Below, in pieces: positions 4,689 through 40,794 of a stretch of 64,000 nucleotides of DNA. Position numbers and translations under genes: made by a program. Positions within the stretch are counted from its first letter, which is position 1. The number at the start of each line of letters is the position of its first letter. The notes under the pieces are model-generated. The model ran no database searches. It had not been told where the DNA came from and was given only the letters and a program-made list of their open reading frames with translations. Origin of the DNA: Candidatus Zambryskiibacteriota bacterium (lineage in GTDB: Bacteria; Patescibacteriota; Minisyncoccia; Phycocordibacterales; WO2-35-19); contig JASNZL010000006.1 in assembly GCA_048499675.1 (NCBI GenBank), forward strand, positions 2,089 to 66,088. Direction: 5' to 3'.

Positions 4689-6077
4689 ATGAGGTGGTAT
4701 ATACCCCTCTTCGTCCTTATCATCACGGCGTTCGCGCCGTGGGTGATGGAAATCAACAGGGTTGCAGGCGAACGTGATCGCCTGCAAGAGCAAATCGCCC
4801 CGCTCTACACACCGGATATGATCCGCTCGGAGTTTGAGTGGATTAAGAAGGTGGAGCGACAGTGGAGCGGTCACTCCAATGAAATTAGTTTGCCTGACGA
4901 TCCCTCTGCCTATTGGCAGTATCTGGATCGCAATTACAAGCTAGCGGATGCACTGGAACAGATTATTCGGGACAGGAAGGATTTGCGGTTTTGCGGTGAG
5001 GCTGAGTCTCGTCTCAAATCACTTCGGACCCTTTCCCCGATTAATCTCATCAACAACAACTTCACCATGAAGTTCGGCGCAGAAAAAATGATCTCTAGTA
5101 AGCCTACCGTTGCCTACTTCATTGAAAAGGAGAGGGTGGGTCGGCAGGAGATCAAAAATGACGCCATGGCCAAGTTCAGACGAGGATACCTTATAAGTAT
5201 CCCGCTGATGTTCTTGGTATTCGCCTTGATACTCTCTAACCTCGGTTTGATGATTTGGGTAGAAATACCCCGCATCATCATCGCGGCTTTGTTTTGGCCC
5301 GTTGCCTTGTTCGTCTATCCGCGCGATGTGCGGAGAAGCGAACAAGTCAAAAGAGCGATGCAATTTGTCGCTCAATTGGCCTCGGTCGCTGTCGGATTCT
5401 TCGGTGGTGGCATGACCAATATGGTGAAGGCGCAGGTCTCACCGAACGGCAAGAGCCAGACCCAATCTGGCAAAAAGGGCAACTCGACTTTTGGCTACGG
5501 CCTTGAGTTGTATCCCCAATCTTCCGGCATCGACGCCGGACTCTTGGTGAGCCCTTGGTACGCGCATTCGCATGCTCTACCAAATGGTTTCACCCTCTCC
5601 GGTTTCGGATTTGTGGAAGCTGGTGAACGCAAAAGCCAGTTATTCACGAACCACTCAATGAACTTGTCCCACGCGAAAGCCTTTGGAGCAATGTTCACAG
5701 TCGAGACCGGCGGGACAAGCGCGGGGAGTTTTGTTCAGGTAGGTCCTCGGGTTAACTTGGTCAAGATTCCGGGCTTCCCACAACAGGCAACCAAGATTGT
5801 GAAGTCGGTGGTTGCTGGCTCGTTCTGGCGAATCCGAGGCCCGACGCATTATCAGGAATGGTACCTGTCATGGGTCTCGGAGGAGGCGAAGCTCCCCGGT
5901 GGCTGGAAACTTTCCAGCGAAGGGATGATGCGCTTCCGGCCTGGACCTAGGGCGACGATAGGCCAGCCTCAGCTCATCCTTCGACATCCGAGAATTCGGC
6001 ATGTCATGCTCATGACGGAATTCTGGATCATCGGCACCCAGCCGACTATCCGTTTCGGCGTTCAGTTCGCAAATTAA
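4689..6077 (+). CDS. Hypothetical membrane protein encoded in a GC-rich (about 55%) foreign segment
   Basis: Strong RBS aaggaggtagaaaATG. There is an N-terminal TM helix and a central double TM. GC3 is very high, unlike the 33%-GC flanks. A hairpin terminator follows. Confidence 0.6.
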   Translation: MRWYIPLFVLIITAFAPWVMEINRVAGERDRLQEQIAPLYTPDMIRSEFEWIKKVERQWSGHSNEISLPDDPSAYWQYLDRNYKLADALEQIIRDRKDLRFCGEAESRLKSLRTLSPINLINNNFTMKFGAEKMISSKPTVAYFIEKERVGRQEIKNDAMAKFRRGYLISIPLMFLVFALILSNLGLMIWVEIPRIIIAALFWPVALFVYPRDVRRSEQVKRAMQFVAQLASVAVGFFGGGMTNMVKAQVSPNGKSQTQSGKKGNSTFGYGLELYPQSSGIDAGLLVSPWYAHSHALPNGFTLSGFGFVEAGERKSQLFTNHSMNLSHAKAFGAMFTVETGGTSAGSFVQVGPRVNLVKIPGFPQQATKIVKSVVAGSFWRIRGPTHYQEWYLSWVSEEAKLPGGWKLSSEGMMRFRPGPRATIGQPQLILRHPRIRHVMLMTEFWIIGTQPTIRFGVQFAN

Positions 6078-8636: not shown

Positions 8637-9680
8637 TCAAGTTCCTGTATCCGTCCAGCACTTTTGAGACTCTGGGACTGTTAATTTGGAACAAATATAC
8701 TGCAAAGGAGAGAGCATGTGAAGAGCATAGTGGGGACGACGAGTGTTGTACCAAATGAGCCAGTCAATTAGTTTCTTGTTAAATTCAGGTACATTATCTC
8801 GAAGAAGTGATCTGTGATAAACAAGGAACTCTTCATTTAGACTACGATTAAATCTCTCCACATGAGCGTTTTCTTTAGGTGATCTTGGATGAGTATTGAA
8901 GTGTAGACCTGTTTCTTCCACTGCTTGGTGGAAGTGGAGAGCAAACTCTGATCCATTGTCAGTCTGGACATCTTTGGGACACAAAGGTAGAACCTGACGA
9001 GTTTTGGAGAGAAAATCGGCAGCACTTCTTGATCCATGATTAGTATAGGCTGTAGCAAAAGCAGTACGTTTTTCGATATCTATGCCAGTCAAAATGTATC
9101 GCTTCACTCCATCCACAAATCGTACAACAGTATCAACTTCCAACACTCTATATCCTTTGGGTCTCCTGAGCTTCTTTCTAGGCTTGTATACTCGCTCAAT
9201 TAGCTTTCCAGTCTTTCCTGAGACGGAGAGTTTTGTGTTTTTTGGTAACTTACCTTGAAACTTTAAGTCATTAATCATTCGACCAACAGTTGAGGGTGAA
9301 AGGTCTGCCACCTTCTCATTTTTCATCATGACAGAAAGTTTGTCCTTCGAGAGACGAGGAGTTTGTCCTCTTTCTTTCAAAATGAAAGCTTCCACCGCTT
9401 CCGGTACGGTTCTTTTTCTTCTGTGTATTGGAGCTGTACTTTTCTTGTTCAGATTCTCTAATTTTCCTAGGTTAGCTTTTAATTTTTTCTGCCATCGGAA
9501 AAGAGTTGGTCTAGAAACCTTGAAAGCTTCCTTTGTAGCTTCCATACTATACTTCTTCCAGAAAGAGAGTATTTTAGCTCTTTCTTTTGCTTGTTCGGTA
9601 ATCATATACCGAAATCGTATCACTCTTTCCCAAGTACTTTTAAATCCTCTGGTTCCCCTAAATTTGTTGAAAAATGCCAT
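8637..9680 (-). CDS. DDE (rve integrase-core) transposase, IS481-family-like
   Basis: N-terminal HTH, rve core with DNGSEF, and HVERFNRSL...RPH in the C-terminus. The ORF is 347 aa. Confidence 0.75.
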   Translation of the reverse strand: MAFFNKFRGTRGFKSTWERVIRFRYMITEQAKERAKILSFWKKYSMEATKEAFKVSRPTLFRWQKKLKANLGKLENLNKKSTAPIHRRKRTVPEAVEAFILKERGQTPRLSKDKLSVMMKNEKVADLSPSTVGRMINDLKFQGKLPKNTKLSVSGKTGKLIERVYKPRKKLRRPKGYRVLEVDTVVRFVDGVKRYILTGIDIEKRTAFATAYTNHGSRSAADFLSKTRQVLPLCPKDVQTDNGSEFALHFHQAVEETGLHFNTHPRSPKENAHVERFNRSLNEEFLVYHRSLLRDNVPEFNKKLIDWLIWYNTRRPHYALHMLSPLQYICSKLTVPESQKCWTDTGT

Positions 9681-9725
9681 ACAAAACTCTTAAACCAGAG
9701 TCTCATATGTTTCTGAACTTATGCA
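8646..9725 (-). mobile_element. IS481-like insertion sequence, intact copy 1
   Basis: A 1080-bp unit is shared with a second copy at 30373-31456. The imperfect terminal inverted repeats are TGTATCCGTCC / GGAACTTATGCA. It contains a single DDE transposase ORF. Confidence 0.7.
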
Positions 9726-26459: not shown

Positions 26460-27725
26460 TCAAACCACTTCTCCCAAATATGGAAACGGTAAATTTCTTA
26501 TATATAATTCCCCTTTGTGTTTTTCTCTGTAATCAAGATTTCGTCTTTGATTAGATTTCATACTTGAAGCAAGCATCAGAGAAGCTTCTCCAAATCTTTG
26601 TTTTATAAGATCAATGGTATTTACAAAACTACTCTGTTTTTTAAATTCACAGACAGCTCCAAACAAATCAACTTGTAGACTTTCATTTGGCAACAGATTA
26701 TAGAGGGTAATACCTGTCGCTCTGTATTTTTTGTTTTTATCAAATACTCCAAATAAATACTTTTCTATTTTGTTTAATATTTCACTTGGATTATTTGTAG
26801 GATAGTCGAGTTCAAAATCAAAAGTTTTCTTGGAAAAATTATCTTCTTTTATAAAAACCGAGGCTTTTTTTGCAAGCTGGTCTTCCTCTCTCAATCTAAG
26901 AGAAACAACTTCTACGTTTTTTGATATTTCAGAAAAGATAAGACTAAAATTGTTGGAGACTGGCAAAAATGAACGAGTGGCTTGCAAGGACTTTGAATAT
27001 TTTTTTGAAACACCAGAAACATCAAAAAGTCTCTCGCCTTTGAGCTCACACCAAATCTCTTGAATTGGGAGGTTAAAATATTTTGTTATTTTAGTCCTTT
27101 CGGTTTTTGTAAAATCAAGTGCATTTTGTATTCCTATATTCTGGAGTTTTAATGTTGTCTTTGCTCCTATTCCCCAAACAGAACTGATTTGGGTTTTGGA
27201 GAGACATTCATCCATATTATCTCCTGAAATTATAGTTAATCCATCAGGTTTTTGGTATTTGGAAGCCAATTTTGCCAAAACTTTTGTGTCAGCAAGCCCA
27301 AAAGAATATGTGATGCCAAGAGACCTTTGTACATCTTTTTTTATGAGAGAAATATATTCTTCAAAACCACCGTGCCTTTTTGCTTCTTTTTGATCTATCA
27401 AAACAAAACATTCGTCGATACTATACTCTTCTACACAATCTGAATACTTTTTTAGAATTTTGATTAACTTTTCTGCATATTTAGCATAGAGCTCAAAATG
27501 AGTTGGCAGAACGATAACACTCGGAAAATCTCTTCTAATTTGAAATATTGGCATTCCTCGTTTGACCCCAAGAGCTTTGGCTTCATAAGTAACAGCCGTT
27601 GCAATCCCTCTCTCTGTACCAACTACAACTGGCATATTTCTAAATTTGGGATAATTGACTCTCTCAACCGAAGCAAAAAAAGCATCCCCATCAATATGCA
27701 AAATTTTGTTTTGATATTTATTCAT
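26460..27725 (-). CDS. dinB: Y-family DNA polymerase IV
   Basis: ILHIDGDAFFASVE and the downstream Y-family palm motifs. It is co-operonic with lexA, overlapping by 4 nt. Confidence 0.85.
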   Translation of the reverse strand: MNKYQNKILHIDGDAFFASVERVNYPKFRNMPVVVGTERGIATAVTYEAKALGVKRGMPIFQIRRDFPSVIVLPTHFELYAKYAEKLIKILKKYSDCVEEYSIDECFVLIDQKEAKRHGGFEEYISLIKKDVQRSLGITYSFGLADTKVLAKLASKYQKPDGLTIISGDNMDECLSKTQISSVWGIGAKTTLKLQNIGIQNALDFTKTERTKITKYFNLPIQEIWCELKGERLFDVSGVSKKYSKSLQATRSFLPVSNNFSLIFSEISKNVEVVSLRLREEDQLAKKASVFIKEDNFSKKTFDFELDYPTNNPSEILNKIEKYLFGVFDKNKKYRATGITLYNLLPNESLQVDLFGAVCEFKKQSSFVNTIDLIKQRFGEASLMLASSMKSNQRRNLDYREKHKGELYIRNLPFPYLGEVV

Positions 27726-28312
27726 TTACTGTATTTTCTTATTATTGCTGTAACCACCGCTTTAATTTGCAATTCTTCTTTTGGGTATATTGGTTTAAAT
27801 GTTTTGTTGGCTGGTTCAAGATACAGACCATTTTTATCTTTTTTCAGATATTTCATTGTCCACTCACCATCGATTTCAGCTATGACAATTTGACCAATTT
27901 TTGGAGAATCAGTTCTTTCTACCAAAACCATATCACCGTCTCTTATCCCAGCATCATACATAGAGTCTCCCCTGACTTTGAGCATAAAAGTAGCTTCTCT
28001 GTCGTCTACCAAGTAATCCTCCAAAGTGACAGAATCTAAAAGATTTTCTTCTGTCATTGTCGGAAAACCTGCTTCTACAAAGCCCAAGAGTTTTATCTCA
28101 CCAAATTTTCTACCATACACCAATGCACCAGAATCACTCTTTTGTAAGAAATCCAAATCAATTAGTTTTTGTAAAAAAGCAAAAGTACCAGATTTGGATT
28201 TAAAACCTAAGAGCTTCGACGCTTCAGCATAAGAAGGCATACGCTTATTCTTTTTGTAAAAATCCTTAATTTTTTGAGCGCTGATTTTATATTTTGAATT
28301 TAGATTTTCCAT
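27722..28312 (-). CDS. lexA: LexA repressor (S24 peptidase)
   Basis: N-terminal winged HTH. C-terminal VRGDSMYDAGIRDGDMVLVE...EWTMKYL carries the Ser-Lys dyad. Confidence 0.85.
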   Translation of the reverse strand: MENLNSKYKISAQKIKDFYKKNKRMPSYAEASKLLGFKSKSGTFAFLQKLIDLDFLQKSDSGALVYGRKFGEIKLLGFVEAGFPTMTEENLLDSVTLEDYLVDDREATFMLKVRGDSMYDAGIRDGDMVLVERTDSPKIGQIVIAEIDGEWTMKYLKKDKNGLYLEPANKTFKPIYPKEELQIKAVVTAIIRKYSK

Positions 28313-28325
28313 ATAAAAAGCATAT

Positions 28326-28339
28326 CGAACGCTCGTTCG
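28326..28339 (-). promoter_or_regulatory. SOS box (Cheo-type LexA operator CGAAC-N4-GTTCG) 14 nt upstream of the lexA start
   Basis: cgaacgctcgttcg is a perfect CGAACRNRYGTTCG palindrome. Confidence 0.65.
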
Positions 28340-28424
28340 TATTGCAAGGTGCAAACTGTGTATTTCTTTATCTGACTTATCTAAAGTGTCTCAAAAGGCT
28401 TCTGCTCCGTGTTTGGGTGCTATG

Positions 28425-29723: not shown

Positions 29724-29980
29724 GTTGTCAAAACTCGTTCTCCTCCACTCTCCTCTTTTTTTCTTGCCTGATAGCATACATTTTTAAAAAACACGCAACA
29801 TTATTTATTCCGCTTGTGTTGATAAATATTATTGTTTTATTTTTTTCTGCGCGGACTAGTGGACGACCTAATTTTTAATGACTGAAAGGAATATAAAAAT
29901 GGAAGTACTCTTGTAGTGCGATGTTAGAACTGGAATAATAAATAATTTAGTAAAATTTCCTGAGTTTGTGTAATAGAAAA

Positions 29981-30021
29981 CCGCCGACCGTGCCGACGAT
30001 TTTCATCGTCGCGGTCGGCGG
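29981..30021 (-). terminator. Terminator hairpin downstream of the lipoprotein gene
   Basis: ccgccgaccgtgccgacgat-tttc-atcgtcgcggtcggcgg, with a T-run on the minus strand. Confidence 0.6.
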
Positions 30022-30022
30022 A

Positions 30023-30319
30023 TTACTTCTGAGAAGCCGGACAAGCAGAGCTTCGGTATTCTTGAATGGTAACAGTTCCCTGCATAAGACCCCAAGAGCT
30101 GTCTTCCTTGAACTGGTAGGTCTCCGTTTTTTCTCCCTCATGCATGTCCCGAGTAAGAACCCAAAGATTGGACTCCTTCCACGTGACCACAACAAGTTTC
30201 TTGCACGCTTGCAAGTCAATCTTGGAGGATCCACCGTATTGACGAGCCACCTGCTGTTGGGTGCACCCACTCAAAAGAGCACACAACATAATAATTGAAA
30301 AACAAACAAGCTTTTTCAC
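30023..30319 (-). CDS. Small lipoprotein (lipobox LLSGC), GC-rich (about 50%) foreign gene
   Basis: Signal peptide plus LSGC lipobox. GC is far above the flanks. Confidence 0.55.
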   Translation of the reverse strand: MKKLVCFSIIMLCALLSGCTQQQVARQYGGSSKIDLQACKKLVVVTWKESNLWVLTRDMHEGEKTETYQFKEDSSWGLMQGTVTIQEYRSSACPASQK

Positions 30320-30372
30320 AACTCACCTCCTATCTTAAATATTAGCATATAATAAATTTTATGTCAAGCATT

Positions 30373-31456
30373 TGTATCCGTCCAGCACTTTTGAGACTCT
30401 GGGACTGTTAATTTGGAACAAATATACTGCAAAGGAGAGAGCATGTGAAGAGCATAGTGGGGACGACGAGTGTTGTACCAAATGAGCCAGTCAATTAGTT
30501 TCTTGTTAAATTCAGGTACATTATCTCGAAGAAGTGATCTGTGATAAACAAGGAACTCTTCATTTAGACTACGATTAAATCTCTCCAAATGAGCGTTTCT
30601 TTAGGTGATCTTTGGATGAGTATTGTAGGGGACCTGTTTCTTCCACTGCTTGTGGAAGTGGAGAGCAAAACTCTGATCCATTGTCAGTCTGGACATCTTT
30701 TGGGACACAAAGGTAGAACCTGACGAGTTTTGAGAGAAAATCGGCGCATCTCTGATCCATGATTAGTATAGGCTGTAGCAAAAGCAGTACGTTTTTTCGA
30801 TATCTATGCCAGTCAAAAATGTATCGCTTCACTCCATCCACAAATCGTACAACAGTATCAACTTCCAACACTCTATATCCTTGGGTCTCCTGAGCTTCTT
30901 TTCTAGGCTTGTATACTGCTCAATTAGCTTTCCAGTCTTTCCTGAGACGGGAGGTTTCCCTCGTTTTTTGGAACTTCATTTGAAACTTTAAGTCATTAAT
31001 CATTCGACCAACAGTTGAGGGTGAAAGGTCTGCCACTTTCATTTTTCAACATGACAGAAAGTTTTTCCTTCGAGAGACGAGGAGTTTGTCCTCTTCTTTT
31101 CAAAATGAAAGCTTCCAACGCTTCCGGTACGGTTCTTTTTTTTTCTTCTGTGTATTGGAGCTGTACTTTTCTTTTTGTTCAGATTCTTAATTTTCTCCTA
31201 GGTTAGCTTTTTAATTTTTCTGCCATCGGAAAAAGAGTTGGTCTAGAAACCTTGAAAGCTTCCTTTGTAGCTTCCATACTATATGCCTCTTCCAGAAAGA
31301 GAGTATTTTAGCTCTTTCTTTTGCTTGTTCGGTAATCATATACCGAAATCGTATCACTCTTTCCCAAGTATTTTAAACTCTGGTTCCCCTAAATTTGTTG
31401 AAAAATGCCATACAAAAACTTTAAACCAGAGTCTCATATGTTTCTGAACTTATGCA
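30373..31456 (-). pseudogene. Decayed second copy of the IS481-like element (transposase broken by many homopolymer indels), flanked by a 5-bp GCATT target duplication
   Basis: About 95% identical to 8646-9725 but carrying more than 10 single-base indels. The ORF track shows only fragments (30364-30588, 30575-30871). GCATT occurs on both flanks. Confidence 0.75.
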
Positions 31457-31694
31457 GCATTTCTTGTCGCAAACCTGTTTATACATTGAAAAATAAGGCT
31501 TAATACTAAAACAATACCTTGTCACACACAATCTTCGCACTTTACAGAATAAACAAAACATCGTCCTTCCATATATTTTTTTATAATGCTCATTAACATA
31601 TATTATAACAAAATCCGCCCCAATAAAACGGGTCGAATTTTATCTATGCGCGGTCTAGTGGACGGTGTTGGAACTAAAATACAAAACATTTATT

Positions 31695-32813
31695 CTAAGG
31701 CAAAGACTCTACATTTTTAAGCCTAGGATATAATATAACATCACGGATATTTTCATATCCAAGCACCCAGGCAATAAATCTTTCAATTCCTAATCCAAAA
31801 CCTGATGTAATTTTGTAATTATCTTGTCTACGTAAATCTATATACCATTCATAATTTTTAGAGTCTACAGATTGTCTTTTTAATGATTCATAAATTTCAC
31901 TCGGATTATCTTGCCTTTGACCAGCTCCAACAATTTCTCCTGAAAAACCTTCAGTTGATAGAGGGGGAAACATTAAATCCGAAGCAATTACTGAATCATT
32001 ATTAAATGGTTTTTGATAAAAAGGAGTCATATCTCTATCAAAATTTGTAATCCAAAATGGCTTAAAATTACCCCTATTAGCTGCATATGCCCTTTCTCCT
32101 TTTGCTGATATCTTTCTACCAAAATTATTCTGTATAACATATTCATTACCGCCTTTTCCTTCCAAATCCTTAAAAACCTCATCAAAAGTAACAGAATCCA
32201 ATCTTTCACTTTTTTGAATAGAAATTAAAGCAGCTTTAGTGTTCAAAGGATCAATGGCCATTTTTTCAACAATTGGCATAAGTGACATACAAATTTCAGA
32301 TAGTGCTTTTATATAATCTTCAACCAGTGGTATTAGATTTTCCATTTTGTCTAAAATTTCTGCTTCGCAATGATAAAATTGATTTAAATGTCTTTCATCA
32401 GGATCTTCTCCTCTCATTGAGGGTAAATAACAGTATAATTTATCAATATTATTACCAAGTAACGGTTCAAAACCAAATTGTGATGAATCAGTAAGATTAG
32501 TTAAATTCTCCCCCAATTTGAAAGCAATGGCTTCAGAATCAGACCCAGGACCCATTGGTGAGGATACACTTGAAGTCATCATAAACAGATCAATATTCTT
32601 TGCTCCAACATGATTACTAAAAAAATCATCTGAAGCCAGTTTAATATAATGTCTTAATATGATAAGTGCTTCATAGTAAGGATTTTTAATAATGTCTAAA
32701 TAATAACTACTTGGAATATATTTGGAAGGTCTTAATTCTGAATTTATATTTTCAATAAACTTTCCAGACTCACTTTTAGCCTTTTTTAAAATTTTTTTAG
32801 ATACAAAAGTCAT
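31695..32813 (-). CDS. Asparaginyl-tRNA-synthetase-like protein: class IIb catalytic core only, no anticodon-binding domain
   Basis: Motif 2 is YLPSMRGEDPDERHLNQFYHCEAEI. Motif 3 is NYEWYIDLRRQDNYKITSGFGLGIERFIAWVLGYENIRDVILYPR, nearly co-linear with AsnRS DYWWYRDLRRYG...[27 protein letters not shown]. The N-terminal 120 aa are unrelated to the OB fold. Confidence 0.75.
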   Translation of the reverse strand: MTFVSKKILKKAKSESGKFIENINSELRPSKYIPSSYYLDIIKNPYYEALIILRHYIKLASDDFFSNHVGAKNIDLFMMTSSVSSPMGPGSDSEAIAFKLGENLTNLTDSSQFGFEPLLGNNIDKLYCYLPSMRGEDPDERHLNQFYHCEAEILDKMENLIPLVEDYIKALSEICMSLMPIVEKMAIDPLNTKAALISIQKSERLDSVTFDEVFKDLEGKGGNEYVIQNNFGRKISAKGERAYAANRGNFKPFWITNFDRDMTPFYQKPFNNDSVIASDLMFPPLSTEGFSGEIVGAGQRQDNPSEIYESLKRQSVDSKNYEWYIDLRRQDNYKITSGFGLGIERFIAWVLGYENIRDVILYPRLKNVESLP

Positions 32814-32818
32814 AAAAT

Positions 32819-33763
32819 TTATTGATTGAATATTAAAATGTTTTTAGAAGTATTTATGTGAGCAATGCCTCCAATAGGTATTGTGAACATTGGGTCTGTG
32901 TGACCAAAATCTAAATTATATAATATTGGTATATTTAAATCTCCACATATTTCATTAATTAAATCAATAAGTTGTTCGTCGTCTATATTAGCAGATTCAG
33001 CAAAACGACCAAAAACTAAACCTTTTATTTTTGAAAAATTTTTCTGTAGAGATAATTGTGTTAAAAATCTTCTAAACATGGTATTTGTTATAGTTTCATC
33101 TTCTTCTATAAAAATAATACTACCTTCTAATTCAGGAAAATACTCTGTACCTGCTAAAATTAATATAGTTTGTAGATTACCCGCAATAATTTTACCTGTC
33201 GCTATACCAGTTCCAACAACAAGACGTCCTTTATTTTTTTTTATTTCTCTTACCAAGTTTTCAGGTGGTTTTTTTAAATAATAAGCATCATCGGCATATA
33301 CCTCTGAATCAGAAATCAATATCTCAGATTCACCTGATACAGCTTTTTTCATATATTCTAAAGTATATTCGAGTGGCTCTGGCTTAAGATAAGTTATGCC
33401 TGCTGGTCCCAGATAAGTAATTTGACCAGTTTTTTGTGTTATCGCTATAAGTAATGCAGTAGTATCTGAAAAACCTATTGTGGGTTTAAAATTATTTTTT
33501 ATTAGTTCATAATCTAAATGTTTCAAAACTTCATTTGTATTAAATCCACCCCAAAAAGACATCACGATATCAATAGTATCATCTTGATACAGCTCATGTA
33601 GAGCATCTGCTCTCTCTTTTGCAGTTCCGGCCAAGTATCCATTATGAACCTTTTTACATATAGAATGTTCAAATACATTAAACCCATTGTTTTTTAAAAA
33701 TTCATATTTTCTTTGTTCACCTTTTGGTGTCATATCTCCGGTTGCAAAAATTCCAATATTCAT
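32819..33763 (-). CDS. S66-family serine peptidase (LD-carboxypeptidase / MccF-like)
   Basis: Nucleophile motif GFSDTTAL, with length and architecture typical of LdcA/MccF. Confidence 0.7.
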   Translation of the reverse strand: MNIGIFATGDMTPKGEQRKYEFLKNNGFNVFEHSICKKVHNGYLAGTAKERADALHELYQDDTIDIVMSFWGGFNTNEVLKHLDYELIKNNFKPTIGFSDTTALLIAITQKTGQITYLGPAGITYLKPEPLEYTLEYMKKAVSGESEILISDSEVYADDAYYLKKPPENLVREIKKNKGRLVVGTGIATGKIIAGNLQTILILAGTEYFPELEGSIIFIEEDETITNTMFRRFLTQLSLQKNFSKIKGLVFGRFAESANIDDEQLIDLINEICGDLNIPILYNLDFGHTDPMFTIPIGGIAHINTSKNILIFNQ

Positions 33764-33767
33764 AAAT

Positions 33768-34928
33768 CTATTTATTATTTGATAAAACCTCTAAATATAT
33801 ATCTCGAGTTTTGATTAACATCTTTTCTAGAGAATAGTGTTCTTCATAATATTTTAAAGTATCTTTACGCATCTTTAATATTTTATCTTCTGATAATTTC
33901 AACATTATACTTGCTGAATTTCCAATAACATCTTCATCGACTCGAAAACCTGATACTTCGTTTTCAAACATTTTTGATACAGAATCCAAATTAGGTAATA
34001 TTGGTATGCATCCGCAAGACATACTATCTATTATTGAAATAGGAAAAACATCTGATGTTGAAAATAACACAGAGAAAGAACAGTTCACCATTATAGATTT
34101 CATCTCACTAGGATCATCTAAATATCCGTATAGTTTTACGAATGGTAAGTTTTCCTTTTTTATTTGTTCATATAGTTCTCCTTCCCCTATTACATGTAGA
34201 TTTACATTATTAGTTAATCTAATTTTTTTTACTAAATCAATTGCTTTCAGTATTCCTTTGTCATAACTTAATTTTCCTAAATACAGAATATCTGTTGTTA
34301 CTTTTAAATTATTTTGATCAACAGGTTCAATTTTTGATGTATGATGTATAATTGATATATTATTTCTTTTTATTTCATATTCTTTCTCTACTACTTTTTT
34401 AGATTCATCAGAAAAACATATAATATGATTTGAATTAAGCAACATATCTTTTTCAATATTAATAATATCAAGATGCTTTTCTTCTATTGGGTTTTCTATC
34501 ATTTTTTCATATTGTTTTTGCAAAAAATGAATTGAAGATATAATTGGAATTTTTAAAGCCTTACTAACTTTTTTTGCTGTTATCCAAGACATCCAATTGT
34601 TTGAATGTATTACAATATTTTTTAGATTATTATTCTTAATAAAATTAATAATATGCTTAGCAAGAAAATCCTGCCAAATTAAAAAATTATTATAATTATC
34701 AAAAATAGAGTACTTATCATGACTTAAATATTTTTCATCTTCCTCCATTTCGGTTGTAATTATTGTTTTATCAAAAACTCTAACTTTCTTTGCGGTAGCC
34801 ACATAAGATTGTATATCTGAATATTCCCTTAAACCATTATGAAGCCTTTCTACATAAATACCCATACCCCATAATGAATTAGGTGGATAATCTGAAGTTA
34901 TATGAATCACTACTATATTTCTTGACAT
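33768..34928 (-). CDS. Glycosyltransferase, GT4 (GT-B) family
   Basis: C-terminal GT4 motifs ...LYLGKLSYDKGI...E(x7)E region; 386 aa. Confidence 0.6.
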   Translation of the reverse strand: MSRNIVVIHITSDYPPNSLWGMGIYVERLHNGLREYSDIQSYVATAKKVRVFDKTIITTEMEEDEKYLSHDKYSIFDNYNNFLIWQDFLAKHIINFIKNNNLKNIVIHSNNWMSWITAKKVSKALKIPIISSIHFLQKQYEKMIENPIEEKHLDIINIEKDMLLNSNHIICFSDESKKVVEKEYEIKRNNISIIHHTSKIEPVDQNNLKVTTDILYLGKLSYDKGILKAIDLVKKIRLTNNVNLHVIGEGELYEQIKKENLPFVKLYGYLDDPSEMKSIMVNCSFSVLFSTSDVFPISIIDSMSCGCIPILPNLDSVSKMFENEVSGFRVDEDVIGNSASIMLKLSEDKILKMRKDTLKYYEEHYSLEKMLIKTRDIYLEVLSNNK

Positions 34929-36076
34929 AATTTATATATTTTAGAATTACTATCATAATTTTTACCTACTTGTAATAATAATTCCCCCACTCTTATCCCG
35001 TTTTGAGAGATGTAATCTGCAATATTTTTCTTAGCTTTATCATCATCAATATCTCTTTTTATAATATCAACAAAAATACTTTCTAATTTTTTTAATACTT
35101 CCAAACGAGAGTCAAATTTTTCTAAGAATATATCGACATCTATGTCACCATTAAAAAGTTCTTTGTATTTTATTGCAATATTTTTAATTTCTTCTCTAGT
35201 AAAACCAACTGTCTGTGAAAGAAAAAAAACAGCATTAATATATTTGTTAATCATTTTTTTTGTTCTTCCTCTGGCTTGTTGAATTATGGAAATAGCGTTT
35301 AAAACAACTTCTAGATATGTTAATGCTTTTTTCTCCAAAGGTGAGCTGTGCTCTCTTACTTTGAACATGTTGGAATTTTTAAAAGGATCTCCTGATCCGG
35401 TTAATGACATTTCTAAAAATTCACGGCCAACACCAAACTCTATAGCTAATTCTTTGTCATCTTTATAAATCAAAACTATATTCCCAACATCCCACCATTC
35501 TCCATTTTTATCTTTTATAAAAATTGTAATTCCTTCACCTTTTAAATTATCAATACCATATTTCCATTGGTAAAAACGCGAATAATCTACTTCTGTTTGT
35601 ATACCCCTTTTGACAAATGGACCCAGGAGTTCAGAATGTTTTTCTGGAACAGTTGGTTTAATTAGTAAATTTTTATTATCAACCCCATATTTTTCTTTTA
35701 ATAATTTAATAACATCATTTACTATTTTGTCATATTCACCAGGTGGACAAAATATTCCATCTATATGAAAAAATGGCATACCAAAAGGTATATGCGATGT
35801 ATCATAAGCATTAATAATATCATGTGTCCTAATACAAGATTGATTAATAACAAAGCTATTTTCTGGAGATTTTCCACTTATTAAATAATCTTTAAAGGCA
35901 TTTATAGAAGATCCAACAAAAGGAACTGTGTCATCTTCCTCAGAAGGATTTAAAGATAAGCTTTCTCTTTTTATGTATCCTAAATCTACAAAATGATTAA
36001 GAAAAGTTTTATGTGTTTCTTGAGATTCAATGCTAGAGCTATTTTCTATATTACTACTAAAGTTAAAATTCTTCAT
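34913..36076 (-). CDS. Alanyl-tRNA-synthetase-like protein: class IIc catalytic domain only, no tRNA-recognition, editing or C-terminal domains
   Basis: FLNHF...[28 protein letters not shown] ~ AlaRS FLDFF...[35 protein letters not shown] ~ [24 protein letters not shown] ~ TFFEMLGNFSFGDY. GNIVLIY ~ [17 protein letters not shown] ~ DTGMGLERI (motif 3). Confidence 0.7.
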   Translation of the reverse strand: [387 protein letters not shown]

Positions 36077-36081
36077 CTTAT

Positions 36082-36897
36082 TTAAACAAAAAACTCAGGT
36101 TCCTCTTTTATTTTTCTTTTTCGATATATTTGAATAGAGAAACCTAAATACTTGTGATTTTCATTAAAAACTTGTATATGTTTTTTCCAACGTTCTCTGA
36201 TTACCTCTTGCAAATCATTGTTTAAATTTTGAATGTGTTCTTTTTGAATGAAATATGAAACATAGTCATTTATTTCCATTTCTGTTTTTGATGATAAAGT
36301 TTTAGTTTCTTCATGATATAACTCCCACAATTCATTTTCCGCCAAAATCTTATTTTTCCAATCACCGGCATTCATTGGAGTAATTTCAATACCTAATATT
36401 TTGTTTATAGAATTAATAATTTCTTTGGGTGGATCTGTATGATATACAAGTGGAGTAATTATCAAAAACCCCCAATTTTTTAAGATACGAAAGTATTCTT
36501 CTAAAGCTTTTTCTTTTCTACTCATGAAACCCGTCGCTCCTCCTGCCATAATAATATCAAAATATTCATCCTTATAAGGTATGTCGTAACTACTTGCAAC
36601 CTTAAAATTAACCCTGTGACTAATTTCTTTGCAGTCTGATTTTTTTATTTCATTCGCAATTTCCACACATTTTTCGGATATATCAATACCATATATTTTA
36701 GCTTTAGATATTCTTACAAATTCTAAAGAGGTAAACCCTGTATTAGAACCAATCTCTAATATTTTTGTTTTTTCGTTTATATCAATAATCTCTCTTATCC
36801 TTTTTATAGTTTGTTTACCTCCAGGACATCTATTAGTCTCTTTAATAAACGCGATAAAATCGGTATAAGACATATCCTTTATAGTTTTCAGATCCAT
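36082..36897 (-). CDS. Class I SAM-dependent methyltransferase
   Basis: Motif I ILEIGSNTGFTSLEF and a post-I acidic residue (YGIDISE). Confidence 0.7.
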   Translation of the reverse strand: MDLKTIKDMSYTDFIAFIKETNRCPGGKQTIKRIREIIDINEKTKILEIGSNTGFTSLEFVRISKAKIYGIDISEKCVEIANEIKKSDCKEISHRVNFKVASSYDIPYKDEYFDIIMAGGATGFMSRKEKALEEYFRILKNWGFLIITPLVYHTDPPKEIINSINKILGIEITPMNAGDWKNKILAENELWELYHEETKTLSSKTEMEINDYVSYFIQKEHIQNLNNDLQEVIRERWKKHIQVFNENHKYLGFSIQIYRKRKIKEEPEFFV

Positions 36898-37384
36898 TAA
36901 TAGAGATTATCACATTTGTGTGAAATAGAAAATATTTTATTTAAGCTAGATATTCAAAGAATATTCCTTGGCGCGAGTGATCCTCTTTCGCTTAAGCTAC
37001 AGTGGGACGCAGTAGGATTTGGTCACACATATTTTTCTCGCCGTCGCTCGAAAAATTGTTCGACCCCGCCTCTCTTCTGAACTTTGCTAAGTCCAGCCTC
37101 CGCTTCGCTTCGGGCGCTGCGGCTTTCAAGTCCCATCGTGCTTAGCATAAGCACCAAAAGAAAATCCCAGTTTTTACTGGGATTTTCTTTTGTCGCTGCG
37201 CGAGTGATGGGAATCTTTTCCTCAACTCAAAATTTTTTCAGTCAAAAAATTTTGGTCTGGGCACCGGCTCATGGAAATTTTTTGCTAAAAATTTCACATT
37301 CCGCCGTTCAAGTCCCATACGCAAAGCAAGCAGTTGCTTTGCTCACTCGCTTAAACAAAAAGCCCCCAGAGGGGGTTTTGTTTG

Positions 37385-37658
37385 CGCGAGTGATGGGACT
37401 TGAACCCACGGCCTTCCGCGTGCACTGATCCACTATTTTCATAATGGCGTGGACTATATCTTCGCCATGAGCATTGAGCTTTTAGGTGCTTTGGTATCTA
37501 GTCTCTACGGCGCTCTCGCCTCAATTAGGCAAGTTCCCTCGGTGTTCGCATATCTTTCGACTTAGCCTTCACCGATATCCCAAAGAGTTTCAATTCGTCT
37601 TTCAACGAAAAGCTGCAATTCTACAGGCGGACGCTCTAACCAGCTGAGCTACACCCGC
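37385..37658 (-). tRNA. tRNA-Asp (GUC) interrupted by a 200-nt group I intron in the anticodon loop (between nt 35 and 36)
   Basis: 5' exon GCGGGTG-TA-GCTCAGCTGGTTAGAGC-G-TCCGC-CTGT. 3' exon CAC-GCGGA-AGGCC-GTGGGTTCAAGTCCCAT-CACTCGC-G. The reconstituted loop is CTGTCAC, with G73, C38 and G10 (Asp identity elements). The intron ends in G and carries a P7-like GTAGAGACTAGAT. Confidence 0.7.
37423..37622 (-). other. Group I intron (about 200 nt) within tRNA-Asp
   Basis: An internal guide GCAG can pair with the exon end CUGU (U·G at the splice site). The terminal nucleotide is G. It shares a GTAGAGACTAGAT core motif with the intron at 39867-40138. Confidence 0.6.
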
Positions 37659-38322
37659 ACTTTTATATATCTCTCAAAAATCACCCTTTTCCTACCAAGA
37701 AATAATTTTGAGGTATATAGTCCATTATACATAAAACTATATAATTTTAAAGAGCCATAAATGCTATATGTTAAACGATAAAAATTACCTTTCCCTTTCT
37801 TTAATACTCCTTTTTTTATACCATGTTTCTCTAATTTATCATTTATACTTTCCAGAAAGTTTTTTGAACAAGAAGTGAAAACTGTTTGTATAGATAAAGT
37901 ACTTGTTCTCCTGTTCTTGTGGATTAAACCACTCCACACATTACCATCCCCATCAAAATACCCCCTTACAAAATGGCAAAAAATTTATCTGGAATATTTG
38001 GAACTGCTAGACTTTTGGTTTTGTTTTGTCTCATTCCCAAATCGTAGAGATCGTTATACATTTCCTTACTACCAATTTGCAATCTATAGCTAATTTTATC
38101 TTCTTTGCGTTTTTTTACTCTTAAACTTATTTTATGTTCCGATCCAATTGTTTTTTTAATCTCCATTAGTAATTTTTTATCGTTAATATGGATATTCCAA
38201 AAATGGGCACCCCTTTTGTTTAAGGTCATATATCCGTCAGCAGCAAAAAAACCTAAAATATAAGCCATCTCCGGTGTCCATTTTTTAAAGAAATTTTTGT
38301 TTACATTTTTATATATCGGCAT
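37649..38322 (-). pseudogene. LAGLIDADG homing endonuclease, free-standing, split into two ORFs (37966-38322 and 37649-37939)
   Basis: The N-terminal ORF has AYILGFFAADGYM (the LAGLIDADG motif) and the C-terminal ORF carries the second half-domain. The split lies at 37940-37965. The 3' end abuts or overlaps the tRNA-Asp 5' end. Confidence 0.65.
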
Positions 38323-39061: not shown

Positions 39062-39748
39062 TCATATTTTAGAACGACTTGCCATATAATCTATGGCCCC
39101 AAGTATTTTATTTTTTAAGAATAATCCCCTCCTAACCTTAATCCTTAAAACACCTCTATAAGTAGCAATATTTTTAAAAGAAGCTTTTTTAAGCTTTGAT
39201 TTTATTAGAGTCGTCTTTGAAAACTGATTTTCTTTTATATTTAGATATTTTATCCAAAAATTTTTTATTTTTTCCTTTTCAATCTTAAATATATCATTTA
39301 AAGACAAGCGAAATATTAAATCATTTTTTGATACATTATTTTTTTGAAGCCATTTTATATAGAACCTTATCATTTGCGGATTGCTGTTTGTAAAGCCCAT
39401 TTCATCATTACTTTCTTTGTACCCCTCGCCCCAATATAAACCGAGCCCAACCATCAATATGTCTCTATCAGTAATTTTACCGACCATTTTTACACCTTTA
39501 TTTTTCTGATCAATAGTATTATGTATTCTTTGTGCCCTTCTCTTTTCTGAATATCTTAACAAACCCTTGATAGACCTTTCCTTTTTATTAAATTTCATCA
39601 TTTTTATAATAGATGTTGATAGTTTTATGTCTCTACACCAAAAACTGACAGTAGAAAAACTCACATTTAATTTTTTTGCTATCGCCCTAACTGTCTCTCC
39701 TTTTAATCGTAATCTCTTTGCCTCACTTTTTATACCTATATTATGCAT
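39062..39748 (-). CDS. LAGLIDADG-family homing endonuclease (LGLYWGEG variant) with an N-terminal HTH, free-standing between two tRNA-Met genes
   Basis: ILMVGLGLYWGEGYK is a LAGLIDADG-type motif. The N-terminal region RAIAKKLNVSFSTVSFW is HTH-like. Confidence 0.55.
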   Translation of the reverse strand: MHNIGIKSEAKRLRLKGETVRAIAKKLNVSFSTVSFWCRDIKLSTSIIKMMKFNKKERSIKGLLRYSEKRRAQRIHNTIDQKNKGVKMVGKITDRDILMVGLGLYWGEGYKESNDEMGFTNSNPQMIRFYIKWLQKNNVSKNDLIFRLSLNDIFKIEKEKIKNFWIKYLNIKENQFSKTTLIKSKLKKASFKNIATYRGVLRIKVRRGLFLKNKILGAIDYMASRSKI

Positions 39749-39834: not shown

Positions 39835-40177
39835 TGCGGGGTAGAGTAATAGTAACTCGTCAGGCTCAAATATGGTGGGCCCCCTATTGAGAGATTAATA
39901 GGAGCAAATTCGCCAAATTCGGAGAAATCCTCTCCACTAAAAGTGGAAAGACAATTCCGAGCTAAATTCCTTTGAACTTGTCCTGCTTGCCCGACATAGT
40001 TTTAACAACGTTGGGAGCGAAAATCAAAGGATAAATGTGTAGAGACTAGATGGTGAAATTCCAAGTTTAAATTTGGAATATGGTATAGTCCAGACCCCAA
40101 ATCCCAATCATGGGAGCATTGAAAAATGTAGTGGTAAGCATAACCTGAAAATTTTGGTGCGAATCCAAACTCCGCAA
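39835..40177 (+). tRNA. tRNA-Met (CAU) interrupted by a 272-nt group I intron between U33 and C34
   Basis: 5' exon TGCGGGG-TA-GAGTAATAGTAACTC-G-TCAGG-CT. 3' exon CATAA-CCTGA-AAAT-TTTGG-TGCGAAT-CCAAA-CTCCGCA-A. The spliced loop is CTCATAA. The intron starts after U, ends in G, has an internal guide GGCC opposite the exon GGCU, and a P7-like GTAGAGACTAGATGG. Confidence 0.7.
39867..40138 (+). other. Group I intron (272 nt) in tRNA-Met
   Basis: See the tRNA call above. There is no ORF inside. Confidence 0.6.
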
Positions 40178-40794
40178 CACGCAAATTGCACATAAAAATC
40201 CAGTTTAAAACAACTGGATTTTATGTTTGCAATTAAGTAGCCACGTGGTGAGCTTGTCCCGTGAAGCTTTGCTTTTTACGGGACATAGCGAATTTTACGT
40301 GGCCGCGATTTCTTTTCAAACCTCACCTCATTTATTGTAAGAGAAAAATTAAATATCGTTTTTCAAAACTCGATTTTCTCCGTGCAAAAAATCATTCTCT
40401 ATTTTTTAAGAAAGAGATTAAATTTTTTTATAGATACAGAACAAGAAATAAGAAGTGTGTAAAGTTAGATTTTTTCAAACAGTATTTTGAAAACAGCTTT
40501 CTGAAAATTAGCAAAGCGTTCGTTTTCAATAAGAATAGCTGTCTCAGTATCAAAATCTATAAAAATAACCTTGTCGTTTCCAATAAGTTGAGTGATATTA
40601 TACTCAAACGGAATATTCAAGGCTTTTGAGAGACGATTCAAATTGTTATGTCTTTTTTCGTGCGTCTTTCGGTTAGTAATTACATATTTATCAATATCTC
40701 CTTTAGATCCAGCTCTCTTCCAATATAAATCTGGATAATACTTTTTGTTATAGGAATAGTCTTTGGGTGATTCATATCGGTATATTGCACCTTC

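What the first reader, a model, noticed from the sequence alone, without database searches (positions are those of the whole stretch)
31695..36897. AT-rich five-gene island with two truncated aaRS paralogs, an MccF-like peptidase, a glycosyltransferase and a methyltransferase
Five tightly spaced, co-oriented genes (gaps of 5, -16, 4 and 5 nt) sit in a block at about 27% GC, well below the local average of about 33%. The block is bounded by a decayed IS copy and the direct repeat TGCGCGGWCTAGTGGACG on one side and by a tRNA-Asp on the other, which is classic island geometry.

Two genes are class II aminoacyl-tRNA-synthetase catalytic cores stripped of every tRNA-binding module. One (31695-32813) aligns motif for motif with AsnRS, and the other (34913-36076) with the AlaRS N-terminal catalytic domain. 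Enzymes of this kind activate an amino acid as aminoacyl-AMP and pass it to a non-tRNA acceptor. Precedents include AsnRS-derived asparagine synthetase A, amino-acid:carrier-protein ligases and EpmA.

Between them lie an S66 serine peptidase, a GT4 glycosyltransferase and a SAM methyltransferase. The S66 family includes MccF, which hydrolyses aminoacyl-nucleotide toxins such as processed microcin C, and LdcA.

Two scenarios fit the sequence. The first is a biosynthetic operon that aminoacylates (Asn/Asp and Ala) and methylates a glycan or nucleoside-type small molecule. The second is a production-and-immunity module for a Trojan-horse aminoacyl-adenylate-like compound. No annotated system I know of combines these two aaRS-core paralogs with S66, GT4 and a methyltransferase.
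Basis: partly seen in the sequence, partly recalled or inferred. Interest (0 to 1): 0.85.

Follow-up and report, generated by a model that had tools for sequence, protein, structure and literature searches.

The report
Likely aminoacyl-nucleotide antibiotic gene cluster
Five co-transcribed genes, two of them relics of tRNA synthetases, most likely make and handle a small nucleotide toxin related to agrocin 84 and microcin C; the same core turns up in about 80 other tiny-celled (Patescibacteria) genomes and has not been described there.

Summary
The five genes are real, tightly packed and the most AT-rich 5.2 kb of the window. Three of them are full-length homologues of three genes of the agrocin 84 cluster on pAgK84:
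- The AsnRS-core protein matches AgnA.
- The "methyltransferase" matches AgnB1, and its best solved relative is MccD of microcin C.
- The S66 peptidase matches AgnC5 and sits in the MccF clade, not with LdcA.

The AlaRS-like protein is not a bare catalytic core. It keeps AlaRS's helical tRNA-recognition domain, lacks the motif-3 arginine and has Asp→Glu in the alanine pocket. That matches AcmF, the Ala-tRNA-dependent transferase of ascamycin.

The AsnRS-like protein has an S66 neighbour in 79 of 86 related loci and a methyltransferase in 76. A variable second synthetase-like partner (AlaRS-, HisRS- or LysRS-like) is usually present. Related loci elsewhere add exporters, GNATs, a PLP decarboxylase or extra full-length synthetases. 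GT4 is confined to this window's small sub-clade.

The chemistry is inferred, not shown. The island geometry is only partly supported.

The parts
36082..36897 (-). First gene of the operon: a SAM-dependent transferase of the MccD/AgnB1 family (271 aa)
   Evidence: Pfam methyltransferase domains. The best PDB hit is MccD 5fcd, 104 bits, E 7e-29, end to end (5-261 vs 13-267), while the next methyltransferase scores only 44 bits. It is 30.6% identical over 265 aa to AgnB1 of pAgK84, E 6e-48. Full-length orthologues occur in 28 related loci.
34913..36076 (-). AlaRS-like protein (387 aa) with an aminoacylation-fold domain plus a helical AlaRS tRNA-recognition-like domain; a candidate AcmF-type aminoacyl-tRNA-dependent transferase
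33768..34928 (-). GT4 glycosyltransferase (386 aa); a decoration step specific to this sub-clade
   Evidence: PF00534, PF13692 and PF13439. The best PDB hit is BshA at E 6e-6, which is weak. It is present only in the window, L001/L011, L002, L003 and L005, plus a fragment in L089.
32819..33763 (-). S66 serine peptidase of the MccF clade (314 aa)
   Evidence: S66 N and C domains. PDB scores: BA_5613 'MccF-like' 190 bits, Lmo1638 172, E. coli MccF 138, B. anthracis MccF 137, against 40-90 bits for LdcA-type enzymes. The Ser/Glu/His triad aligns (GFSD, IEED, GHTD). It is 30.6% identical to AgnC5 'MccF-like protein', E 1.5e-40.
31695..32813 (-). AsnRS-catalytic-core protein without an anticodon-binding domain (372 aa), AgnA type; last gene of the operon
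   Evidence: PF00152 E 8e-31. asnS and 'asparagine synthetase A' models score 145-147 bits, far below their cut-offs. Motifs 2 and 3 and the GEIVGAGQRQ stretch are kept relative to P. horikoshii AsnRS. The model's best structural matches are AsnRSs. It is 32.7% identical to AgnA, E 1.6e-45. More than 948 homologues exist, about 55% identical and about 372 aa long.
31615..31631 (-). Terminator-like hairpin followed by a T run, downstream of the last gene
   Evidence: Consensus scan only.
37384..37658 (-). tRNA-Asp(GTC) interrupted in the anticodon loop by a 200-nt group I intron (37423-37622); upstream boundary of the block
   Evidence: The spliced sequence folds as tRNA-Asp in ARAGORN. Rfam Intron_gpI scores 42 bits, E 3e-9, below the gathering score. 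ARAGORN's intron mode calls the same locus tRNA-Tyr with another splice choice, but the short variable arm argues against Tyr.
36968..37398 (+). Three copies of the tRNA-Asp 3' end (GCGCGAGTGAT...), 186-227 bp apart, between the tRNA and the operon; possible integration scars
   Evidence: the repeat finder families D5, D14 and D15; exact 15-mer at 37198 and 37384.
30373..31456 (-). Decayed IS copy downstream of the operon
   Evidence: rve fragments in two frames; 94.5% nucleotide identity over 1101 nt to the intact IS at 8646-9725.
29848..31664 (+). Pair of 18-nt direct repeats TGCGCGGWCTAGTGGACG (29848-29865 and 31647-31664) that bracket the IS remnant and a small ORF, not the five genes
   Evidence: D6.

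Best explanation
The five genes form one operon for a small aminoacyl-nucleotide antimetabolite of the agrocin 84 / microcin C kind. That kind is a non-hydrolysable mimic of an aminoacyl-adenylate, probably an N-acyl phosphoramidate.

Proposed steps (all inferred from homology and gene context):
1. The AsnRS-core protein (AgnA type) uses ATP and an Asn/Asp-type substrate to build the amino-acid-nucleotide linkage.
2. The MccD/AgnB1-family SAM enzyme alkylates the intermediate, by methyl or 3-amino-3-carboxypropyl transfer.
3. The AlaRS-like protein, like AcmF, takes alanine from Ala-tRNA rather than from ATP plus Ala and transfers it to an amine of the nucleotide intermediate.
4. The GT4 adds a sugar, in this sub-clade only.
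5. The MccF-clade S66 peptidase cleaves the aminoacyl-N bond, either to protect the producer or as a processing step.

What is shown: the homologies, the domain losses and retentions, and the conserved gene association. Every chemical step is inferred.
For: 1. Operon structure. The gaps are 5, -16, 4 and 5 nt. The same order MT-AlaL-GT4-S66-AsnL is kept at 37-63% amino-acid identity in L001/L011, L002, L003 and L005.

2. Three of the five proteins have full-length homologues in the agrocin 84 cluster. These are AgnA (32.7%, E 1.6e-45), AgnB1, which lies directly next to agnA (30.6%, E 6e-48), and AgnC5 'MccF-like' (30.6%, E 1.5e-40). That cluster also holds a second class II synthetase-like protein, AgnC1, and a resistant LeuRS.

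3. The SAM enzyme's best solved relative is MccD (104 bits against 44 for the next). The S66 protein groups with MccF and MccF-like proteins, not LdcA.

4. In a census of 86 non-redundant loci of the AsnRS-like family, S66 lies within 6 kb in 79 and a methyltransferase in 76. The second synthetase-like partner is AlaRS-like in 25, HisRS-like 'X' in 29 and LysRS-like in 4.

5. Accessory neighbours fit nucleotide-antibiotic logic:
- a PLP Orn/DAP-type decarboxylase, as in MccE1 (3 loci);
- a GNAT, as in MccE2;
- HD, HAD and NUDIX hydrolases, an APH kinase and ATP-grasp ligases;
- full-length AspRS, LysRS, ProRS and a class I synthetase next to the module.

6. Plasmids of cultured bacteria carry the same set. 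The Peribacillus plasmid has ATP-grasp, MFS exporter, AlaRS, AlaRS-related protein, MT, AsnRS-like and S66. Pantoea has a GNAT::AsnRS-like fusion next to an MFS. Bradyrhizobium symbiosis plasmids have S66-AsnRS-like(53% identity)-HAD-MT.

7. The AlaRS-like protein shares AcmF's described features: it is truncated to the aminoacylation and tRNA-recognition domains, has Asp->Glu at the Ala-binding position, and has lost ATP-binding residues.
Against: - No product, activity or phenotype is known for any member, and the agrocin 84 pathway itself is unsolved.
- The window operon has no exporter, no extra full-length synthetase and no GNAT, so self-resistance would rest on S66 alone.
- The AlaRS-like protein keeps N199, where AcmF has Gln, and keeps the motif-2 Arg, so an adenylating role is not excluded.
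- I could not obtain the AcmF sequence, so the comparison rests on the published description.
- Only 28 of the related loci have the MccD/AgnB1-type SAM enzyme. The others carry different methyltransferases.
- AgnC1 is not homologous to the AlaRS-like or X proteins.
Confidence: 0.55

Rival explanations
1. Protection only. The module detoxifies imported aminoacyl-nucleotide toxins. S66 hydrolyses them, the SAM enzyme and GT4 modify them, and the two synthetase-like proteins act as decoys or repair enzymes. Nothing is produced.
For: Stand-alone MccF homologues give microcin C resistance. The window operon has no exporter. Patescibacteria live attached to other bacteria (my own knowledge).
Against: MccD and AgnB1 are biosynthetic, not immunity, enzymes. 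The AsnRS-like protein keeps all its catalytic motifs and is very highly conserved, with 66% mean column identity. Related loci carry exporters, ATP-grasp ligases and NRPS neighbours, which is typical of producers.
Confidence: 0.12
2. A small glycoside or surface glycan is aminoacylated and methylated, as in mycothiol synthesis where the GT4 MshA works with the CysRS paralogue MshC.
For: A GT4 lies inside the operon. Its best solved relative is BshA, which has a small-molecule acceptor, though weakly at E 6e-6. There is precedent for GT4 plus a synthetase paralogue.
Against: GT4 is present only in this rare sub-clade, about 7 of 95 loci, while the rest of the module is constant. There are no transporter, flippase, polymerase or lipid-carrier genes. 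The three conserved genes are homologous to nucleotide-antibiotic genes.
Confidence: 0.12
3. Housekeeping genes that merely sit together: a tRNA-independent asparagine synthetase (archaeal AS-AR type) and a muropeptide LD-carboxypeptidase, with unrelated methyltransferases.
For: NCBIfam 'asparagine synthetase A' models match end to end. PGAP names homologues that way. The organism appears to use GatCAB, since GatA is in the window.
Against: The scores are far below the family cut-offs, 145 against 389. The association holds in 79 of 86 loci despite rearranged gene orders. The S66 protein is MccF-clade. The distribution is patchy and plasmid-borne, and the block's composition is deviant.
Confidence: 0.05

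Closest known systems
Agrocin 84 (agn) biosynthetic cluster of pAgK84, Rhizobium rhizogenes K84
   Same: It has a truncated AsnRS homologue (AgnA) with a SAM enzyme directly next to it (AgnB1) and an MccF-like S66 peptidase (AgnC5). All three are full-length homologues of window genes at 31-33% identity. It also has a second class II synthetase-like protein (AgnC1), and its product carries a sugar moiety.
   Different: The window has no homologue of AgnC1/C0, the resistant LeuRS AgnB2, the exporter AgnG or the other agnC/D/E genes. The window instead has an AlaRS-like protein and a GT4. It has five genes rather than 17, and the host is a probable Patescibacterium.
Microcin C (mcc) clusters
   Same: MccD (a class I methyltransferase fold that transfers 3-amino-3-carboxypropyl to the phosphoramidate) and MccF (S66) both have homologues in the window. 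Related loci add a PLP decarboxylase, as in MccE1, and a GNAT, as in MccE2.
   Different: The operon has no ThiF-like MccB and no MFS MccC, and I saw no MccA-like peptide by eye upstream of the first gene. The nucleotide linkage would have to be made by a synthetase paralogue acting on a free amino acid, not on a ribosomal peptide.
AcmF/AcmD of ascamycin biosynthesis (Streptomyces sp. 80H647)
   Same: AcmF is a truncated AlaRS-like protein with only the aminoacylation and tRNA-recognition domains. It has lost ATP-binding residues and has Asp->Glu at the alanine-binding position. It transfers Ala from Ala-tRNA to the NH2 of an adenylate-mimicking nucleoside. The window protein has the same architecture and the same Asp->Glu change. 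The Peribacillus locus pairs an AlaRS-related protein with an extra AlaRS, as AcmF is paired with AcmD.
   Different: N199 is kept, whereas AcmF has Gln. Sequence relatedness to AcmF could not be tested. There are no sulfamate-pathway genes. No dedicated AlaRS is present in the window.
Archaeal-type asparagine synthetase A (AS-AR) and E. coli AsnA
   Same: An AsnRS/AspRS catalytic core without an anticodon-binding domain.
   Different: AsnRSs are the closer match by sequence and by fold (101 bits against 42 bits). The NCBIfam cut-offs are not reached. The gene is embedded in a conserved operon with S66 and SAM enzymes.
Mycothiol and bacillithiol pathways (GT4 MshA/BshA plus the CysRS paralogue MshC)
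   Same: A GT4 enzyme together with a synthetase paralogue acting on a small molecule.
   Different: MshC is class I, and there is no deacetylase or acetyltransferase. The GT4 is not part of the conserved core.

Membership tests
agn-type (agrocin 84-like) cluster | AgnA-type truncated AsnRS homologue | tested here: met
   32.7% identity over 342 aa, E 1.6e-45; the A3 profile scores 189 bits against AgnA.
agn-type (agrocin 84-like) cluster | AgnB1-type SAM enzyme and AgnC5 MccF-like peptidase in the same cluster | tested here: met
   30.6% identity over 265 aa at E 6e-48, and 30.6% over 281 aa at E 1.5e-40.
agn-type (agrocin 84-like) cluster | AgnC1/AgnC0 pair, a resistant target synthetase (AgnB2) and an exporter (AgnG) | tested here: not met
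   No AgnC1 similarity for the AlaRS-like or X profiles. Among the window ORFs I scanned with Pfam there is no full-length synthetase or transporter. Some related loci do carry full-length synthetases.
agn-type (agrocin 84-like) cluster | The product is a nucleoside N-acyl phosphoramidate that inhibits a synthetase | not testable with these tools
   Needs chemistry and enzymology.
mcc (microcin C-like) cluster | MccA precursor peptide and ThiF-like MccB | tested here: not met
   None of the five proteins has a ThiF domain. By eye, the 36898-37000 leader holds no short ORF ending in Asn. A ThiF gene near L010 is not general.
mcc (microcin C-like) cluster | MccD and MccF homologues | tested here: met
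   5fcd MccD at 104 bits over the full length; MccF structures at 137-138 bits.
AcmF-type AlaRS-like aminoacyl-tRNA-dependent transferase | Only the aminoacylation and tRNA-recognition domains of AlaRS | tested here: met
AcmF-type AlaRS-like aminoacyl-tRNA-dependent transferase | Active-site changes: Asp->Glu (D232E), Asn->Gln (N219Q), and loss of ATP-binding residues | tested here: inconclusive
   Glu is present (E213; 139 of 154 family members). Asn is kept (N199). The motif-3 Arg is lost (F220; Thr in most of the family). The motif-2 Arg is kept, as is AcmF's R93.
AcmF-type AlaRS-like aminoacyl-tRNA-dependent transferase | Uses Ala-tRNA, not ATP plus Ala; sequence clusters with AcmF | not testable with these tools
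Canonical AsnRS | N-terminal OB anticodon-binding domain, and a score above the asnS cut-off | tested here: not met
   No PF01336 match. TIGR00457 scores 146.7 against a cut-off of 342.6, and the match starts at profile position 132.
Asparagine synthetase A (AS-AR/AsnA) | Score above the NCBIfam cut-offs, and closest to AS-AR structures | tested here: not met
   144.7 against a cut-off of 389. The AS-AR structure 3p8t scores 42 bits against 101 bits for AsnRS 1x54. AS-AR is absent from the top 50 fold matches.
LdcA (murein LD-carboxypeptidase) | Closest to LdcA, and above the NF008424 cut-off | tested here: not met
   102 bits against a cut-off of 378. LdcA structures score 40-90 bits against 137-190 for the MccF clade.
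tRNA-targeted genomic island | Deviant composition next to a tRNA gene | tested here: met
tRNA-targeted genomic island | An integrase, and direct repeats of the tRNA 3' end at both ends of the block | tested here: not met
   No integrase. The tRNA-end copies lie only within 420 bp of the tRNA. The 18-mer repeat brackets the IS remnant. The cluster sits in the same ligA-gatA neighbourhood in relatives.

The most novel reading that the evidence does not exclude
The constant trio is a machine for installing a P-N bond, and asparagine is a sacrificial nitrogen donor. The proposed sequence is:
1. The AsnRS-like enzyme performs MccB-like chemistry on free Asn, giving an isoasparaginyl-N-phosphoramidate nucleotide.
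2. The MccF-type S66 peptidase removes aspartate and leaves a nucleoside 5'-phosphoramidate.
3. The variable synthetase-like partner (AlaRS-like here, HisRS-like or LysRS-like elsewhere, AgnC1 in agrocin 84) acylates that NH2 from an aminoacyl-tRNA, as AcmF does.

The result would be a programmable family of non-hydrolysable aminoacyl-AMP mimics, an Ala-AMP mimic in this window. This would explain three things: why a Leu-mimicking antibiotic needs an AsnRS-like and an MccF-like gene; why the partner varies while AsnRS-like plus S66 stay constant; and why both the AlaRS-like and the X partners lack the motif-3 Arg.
Probability: 0.2. Interest if true: 0.9.

Novelty: new variant of a known kind. 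Interest (0 to 1): 0.7.

Why it matters
[quoted passage not shown] A minimal five-gene relative shares the AgnA/AgnB1/AgnC5 core. Together with about 80 sister loci that swap the second synthetase-like partner, it gives a compact, testable system for how the N-acyl phosphoramidate is made. It would also be a first sign that Patescibacteria, usually seen as metabolically minimal, encode synthetase-targeting nucleotide antimetabolites that could act on their hosts or competitors. The family could also be a source of enzymes for making aminoacyl-adenylate mimics.

Tried and rejected
- PADLOC: no defence-system match, apart from a generic methyltransferase hit.
- Phage collection: only canonical asnS-type hits.
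- The search for related loci with the 50-sequence AlaRS-like alignment failed because no conserved stretch was found. The genome scan was therefore run with the AsnRS-like alignment.
- The 385-aa neighbour 'X' is not AlaRS-like by hhalign and has no PDB sequence hit. It gives only weak tRNA-synt_His matches. Calling it HisRS-like rests on those hits and on motifs I read by eye.
- tblastn of the window's AlaRS-like protein against plasmids found nothing. The profile does find the Peribacillus protein, at 5e-33.
- A contig look-up for the window's own protein failed, and cluster names were empty, so the source organism is inferred only from relatives.
- The afdb50 fold library was unavailable.
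- There is no remnant in the window of the sixth gene (a 258-aa methyltransferase) that L001-L003 carry.
- Seven searches of the held literature found no paper that links an AsnRS-like gene with MccD or MccF homologues or with Patescibacteria.

Full report
**Observation**

A terminator-like hairpin follows the last gene at 31615-31631. The block is 28.1% GC against 35.8% for the rest of the window. It is the lowest of 236 sliding windows of its size, and GC3 is 15-22% against 24-34% in neighbouring genes.

Downstream lies a frameshifted IS copy. It shows rve fragments and is 94.5% identical over 1101 nt to an intact IS at 8646-9725. The 18-mer TGCGCGGWCTAGTGGACG occurs at 29848 and 31647 with none expected by chance. 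Both copies are on the same side of the block, so they bracket the IS remnant rather than the five genes.

Upstream, a default tRNA scan finds nothing. Removing 200 nt from the anticodon loop of 37384-37658(-) gives a clean tRNA-Asp(GTC), and Rfam sees a sub-threshold group I intron there (42 bits, E 3e-9). Partial copies of the tRNA 3' end lie only 190-420 bp from the tRNA. No integrase is present, and no tRNA-derived repeat lies at the far end of the block.

**The individual proteins**

- AsnRS-like protein (31695-32813). It matches PF00152 across the whole catalytic core and has no OB anticodon-binding domain. It keeps motif 2 (RHLNQFYHCEAE), the GEIVGAGQRQ stretch and motif 3 (SGFGLGIERF...YPR) when aligned to P. 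horikoshii AsnRS. Its model superposes best on AsnRSs. It reaches neither the asnS nor the asparagine-synthetase-A cut-off.

- S66 protein (32819-33763). It scores 190, 172 and 137-138 bits against MccF-like BA_5613, Lmo1638 and the two characterised MccF enzymes. LdcA-type structures score only 40-90 bits. The Ser-Glu-His triad is aligned.

- "Methyltransferase" (36082-36897). Its best solved relative by a wide margin is MccD (104 bits end to end; next best 44 bits). MccD is the class I methyltransferase-fold enzyme that puts 3-amino-3-carboxypropyl on the phosphoramidate of microcin C.

- GT4 (33768-34928). It is a generic member of its family, with a weak best match to BshA.

**Conservation of the arrangement**

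The same five-gene order recurs at 37-63% amino-acid identity in L001/L011 (Ca. Taylorbacteria), L002, L003 and L005. Some of these have a sixth gene, a second methyltransferase.

The AsnRS-like protein belongs to a large, highly conserved family. It has more than 948 hits, about 55% identical and about 372 aa long, with a mean column identity of 66%.

I fetched 80 further genomic loci, nearly all from Patescibacteria MAGs, and called and classified their ORFs. Among 86 non-redundant loci, S66 lies within 6 kb of the AsnRS-like gene in 79 and a methyltransferase in 76. A second class II synthetase-like partner is present as follows:
- AlaRS-like in 25 loci;
- a roughly 385-aa family "X" in 29 loci, with weak tRNA-synt_His hits, HisRS-like motifs that I read by eye, and again no motif-3 Arg;
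- a divergent LysRS-like protein in 4 loci, which in two cases (L038, L062) is directly followed by a bona fide LysRS.

GT4 is confined to the window's sub-clade.

Recurrent accessory neighbours are a PLP Orn/DAP-type decarboxylase, ATP-grasp ligases, an APH kinase, NUDIX, HD and HAD hydrolases, a GNAT, and full-length AspRS, LysRS, ProRS and a class I synthetase.

**Links to characterised systems**

In annotated plasmids the closest non-CPR homologues sit in producer-like contexts:
- A Peribacillus plasmid carries ATP-grasp, an MFS exporter, AlaRS, an AlaRS-related protein (which hits my profile at 5e-33), MT, AsnRS-like and S66.
- Pantoea plasmids carry a GNAT::AsnRS-like fusion next to an MFS transporter.
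- B. pseudomycoides carries MT, AsnRS-like and ATP-grasp.
- A Streptomyces copy lies inside an NRPS cluster.
- Bradyrhizobium symbiosis plasmids carry S66, AsnRS-like (53% identity), HAD and MT.

The decisive link is pAgK84. Its agnA is a homologue (32.7% identity), and it is more similar to the window protein than canonical asnS is. The annotated agn cluster places a SAM enzyme directly after agnA and contains an "MccF-like protein", AgnC5. BLASTP gives full-length matches of the window's SAM enzyme to AgnB1 (30.6%, E 6e-48) and of its S66 protein to AgnC5 (30.6%, E 1.5e-40).

A 2021 review (PMC8323819) states several relevant points:
- the agrocin 84 pathway is unknown;
- AgnA was proposed to make the phosphoramide bond;
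- AgnC1 resembles ProRS;
- agn-like clusters were found only in Ensifer and some Actinobacteria.

A 2026 review (PMC12945691) describes AcmF of ascamycin biosynthesis:
- it is a truncated AlaRS-like protein with only the aminoacylation and tRNA-recognition domains;
- it has lost ATP-binding residues and carries N219Q and D232E;
- it transfers Ala from Ala-tRNA, charged by the AlaRS paralogue AcmD, onto the NH2 of an adenylate-mimicking nucleoside.

The window protein shares that architecture and the Asp->Glu change. The spacing from its Asn199 to Glu213 (14 residues) is close to AcmF's 219-232 (13 residues) and, on my recollection of E. coli AlaRS numbering (Asn212 to Asp235, 23 residues), shorter than in AlaRS.

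**Interpretation**

The best-supported reading is an operon for an aminoacyl-nucleotide antimetabolite of the agn/mcc kind, with the roles given under Best explanation. What is shown is homology, domain content and a very strong gene association. The substrate, the product and the role of S66 (immunity or processing) are inferred.

Points against are the lack of an exporter or a resistant synthetase in the window, the retained Asn199 and motif-2 Arg in the AlaRS-like protein, and the fact that only 28 loci have the MccD/AgnB1-type SAM enzyme.

The glycan scenario is weakened because GT4 is peripheral to the family. The housekeeping scenario is weakened by the sub-threshold scores, the persistent linkage and the plasmid-borne spread across phyla.

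**Mobility**

The window's cluster lies in the same neighbourhood (pilus genes, ligA, gatA, tRNA-Met and tRNA-Asp) as in L001/L011. In L001 the cluster has the same GC as its flanks. In L002, L005 and L009 it is 4-10 points lower.

This fits an old acquisition in this lineage combined with repeated horizontal transfer of the module at large. Copies about 53% identical occur in Bradyrhizobium and Calothrix plasmids. It does not fit a recent tRNA-targeted island insertion.

**Novelty**

Within the held literature I found no description of this module or of its distribution in Patescibacteria. I file it as a new variant of a known kind, namely agrocin 84 / microcin C-type nucleotide antibiotics with an ascamycin-type transferase. 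It has real experimental value because it is minimal and comes with natural partner-swapped variants.

Noticed in passing
window 37384-37658(-) and 39835-40178(+): Two tRNA genes within 2.5 kb, tRNA-Asp(GTC) and tRNA-Leu(CAA), are each split by a group I intron in the anticodon loop (Rfam 42 and 61 bits). A LAGLIDADG-like ORF (37966-38322) and an HTH ORF (39062-39748) lie between them.
   Followed up: partly
window 36968-37398: Three units, 186-227 bp apart, each start with the tRNA-Asp 3' end (GCGCGAGTGAT...). Two of them also carry an inverted T-arm-like TTCAAGTCCCAT (37120, 37302). They may be scars of repeated integration or excision at this tRNA.
   Followed up: partly
window 4689-6077(+): A 462-aa ORF at 52.7% GC (GC3 64%) in a 35% GC window has no Pfam or NCBIfam match.
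   Followed up: partly
window 8646-9725 and 30373-31456: An intact IS (HTH_32 plus rve, 347 aa) and a frameshifted copy 94.5% identical to it, 21 kb apart.
   Followed up: yes
window 26460-28354(-): A LexA-like S24 peptidase gene overlaps a Y-family polymerase gene; this looks like an SOS mutagenesis cassette.
   Followed up: no
L006 10917-12074(-), L008 4515-5666(-) and 27 other loci: Family 'X' (about 385 aa) is the alternative partner of the AsnRS-like/S66 module. It has weak tRNA-synt_His hits and HisRS-like motifs, the motif-3 Arg is replaced by Leu, and it has no PDB sequence hit.
   Followed up: partly
L038 10108-12818 and L062 9961-12770: A divergent LysRS-like gene (231-268 bits, below the cut-off of 468) is immediately followed by a bona fide LysRS, right after AsnRS-like, MT and S66. 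This parallels the AcmF/AcmD pairing and the Peribacillus pairing of an AlaRS-related protein with AlaRS.
   Followed up: partly
L091 (Bradyrhizobium elkanii pS05J, 111680-115465): S66, AsnRS-like (53% identical to the window protein), HAD and MT sit on soybean-symbiont plasmids next to nodU.
   Followed up: no
L093 (Pantoea agglomerans plasmids) and P0266: GNAT domains are fused to the synthetase-like proteins: GNAT::AsnRS-like (531 aa) next to an MFS transporter, and GNAT::AlaRS-like (520 aa).
   Followed up: no
L010 1838-4026: A ThiF-like gene and a nitroreductase-like gene lie a few kb upstream of one module. This may be a separate RiPP-type cluster or a link to MccB-type chemistry.
   Followed up: no
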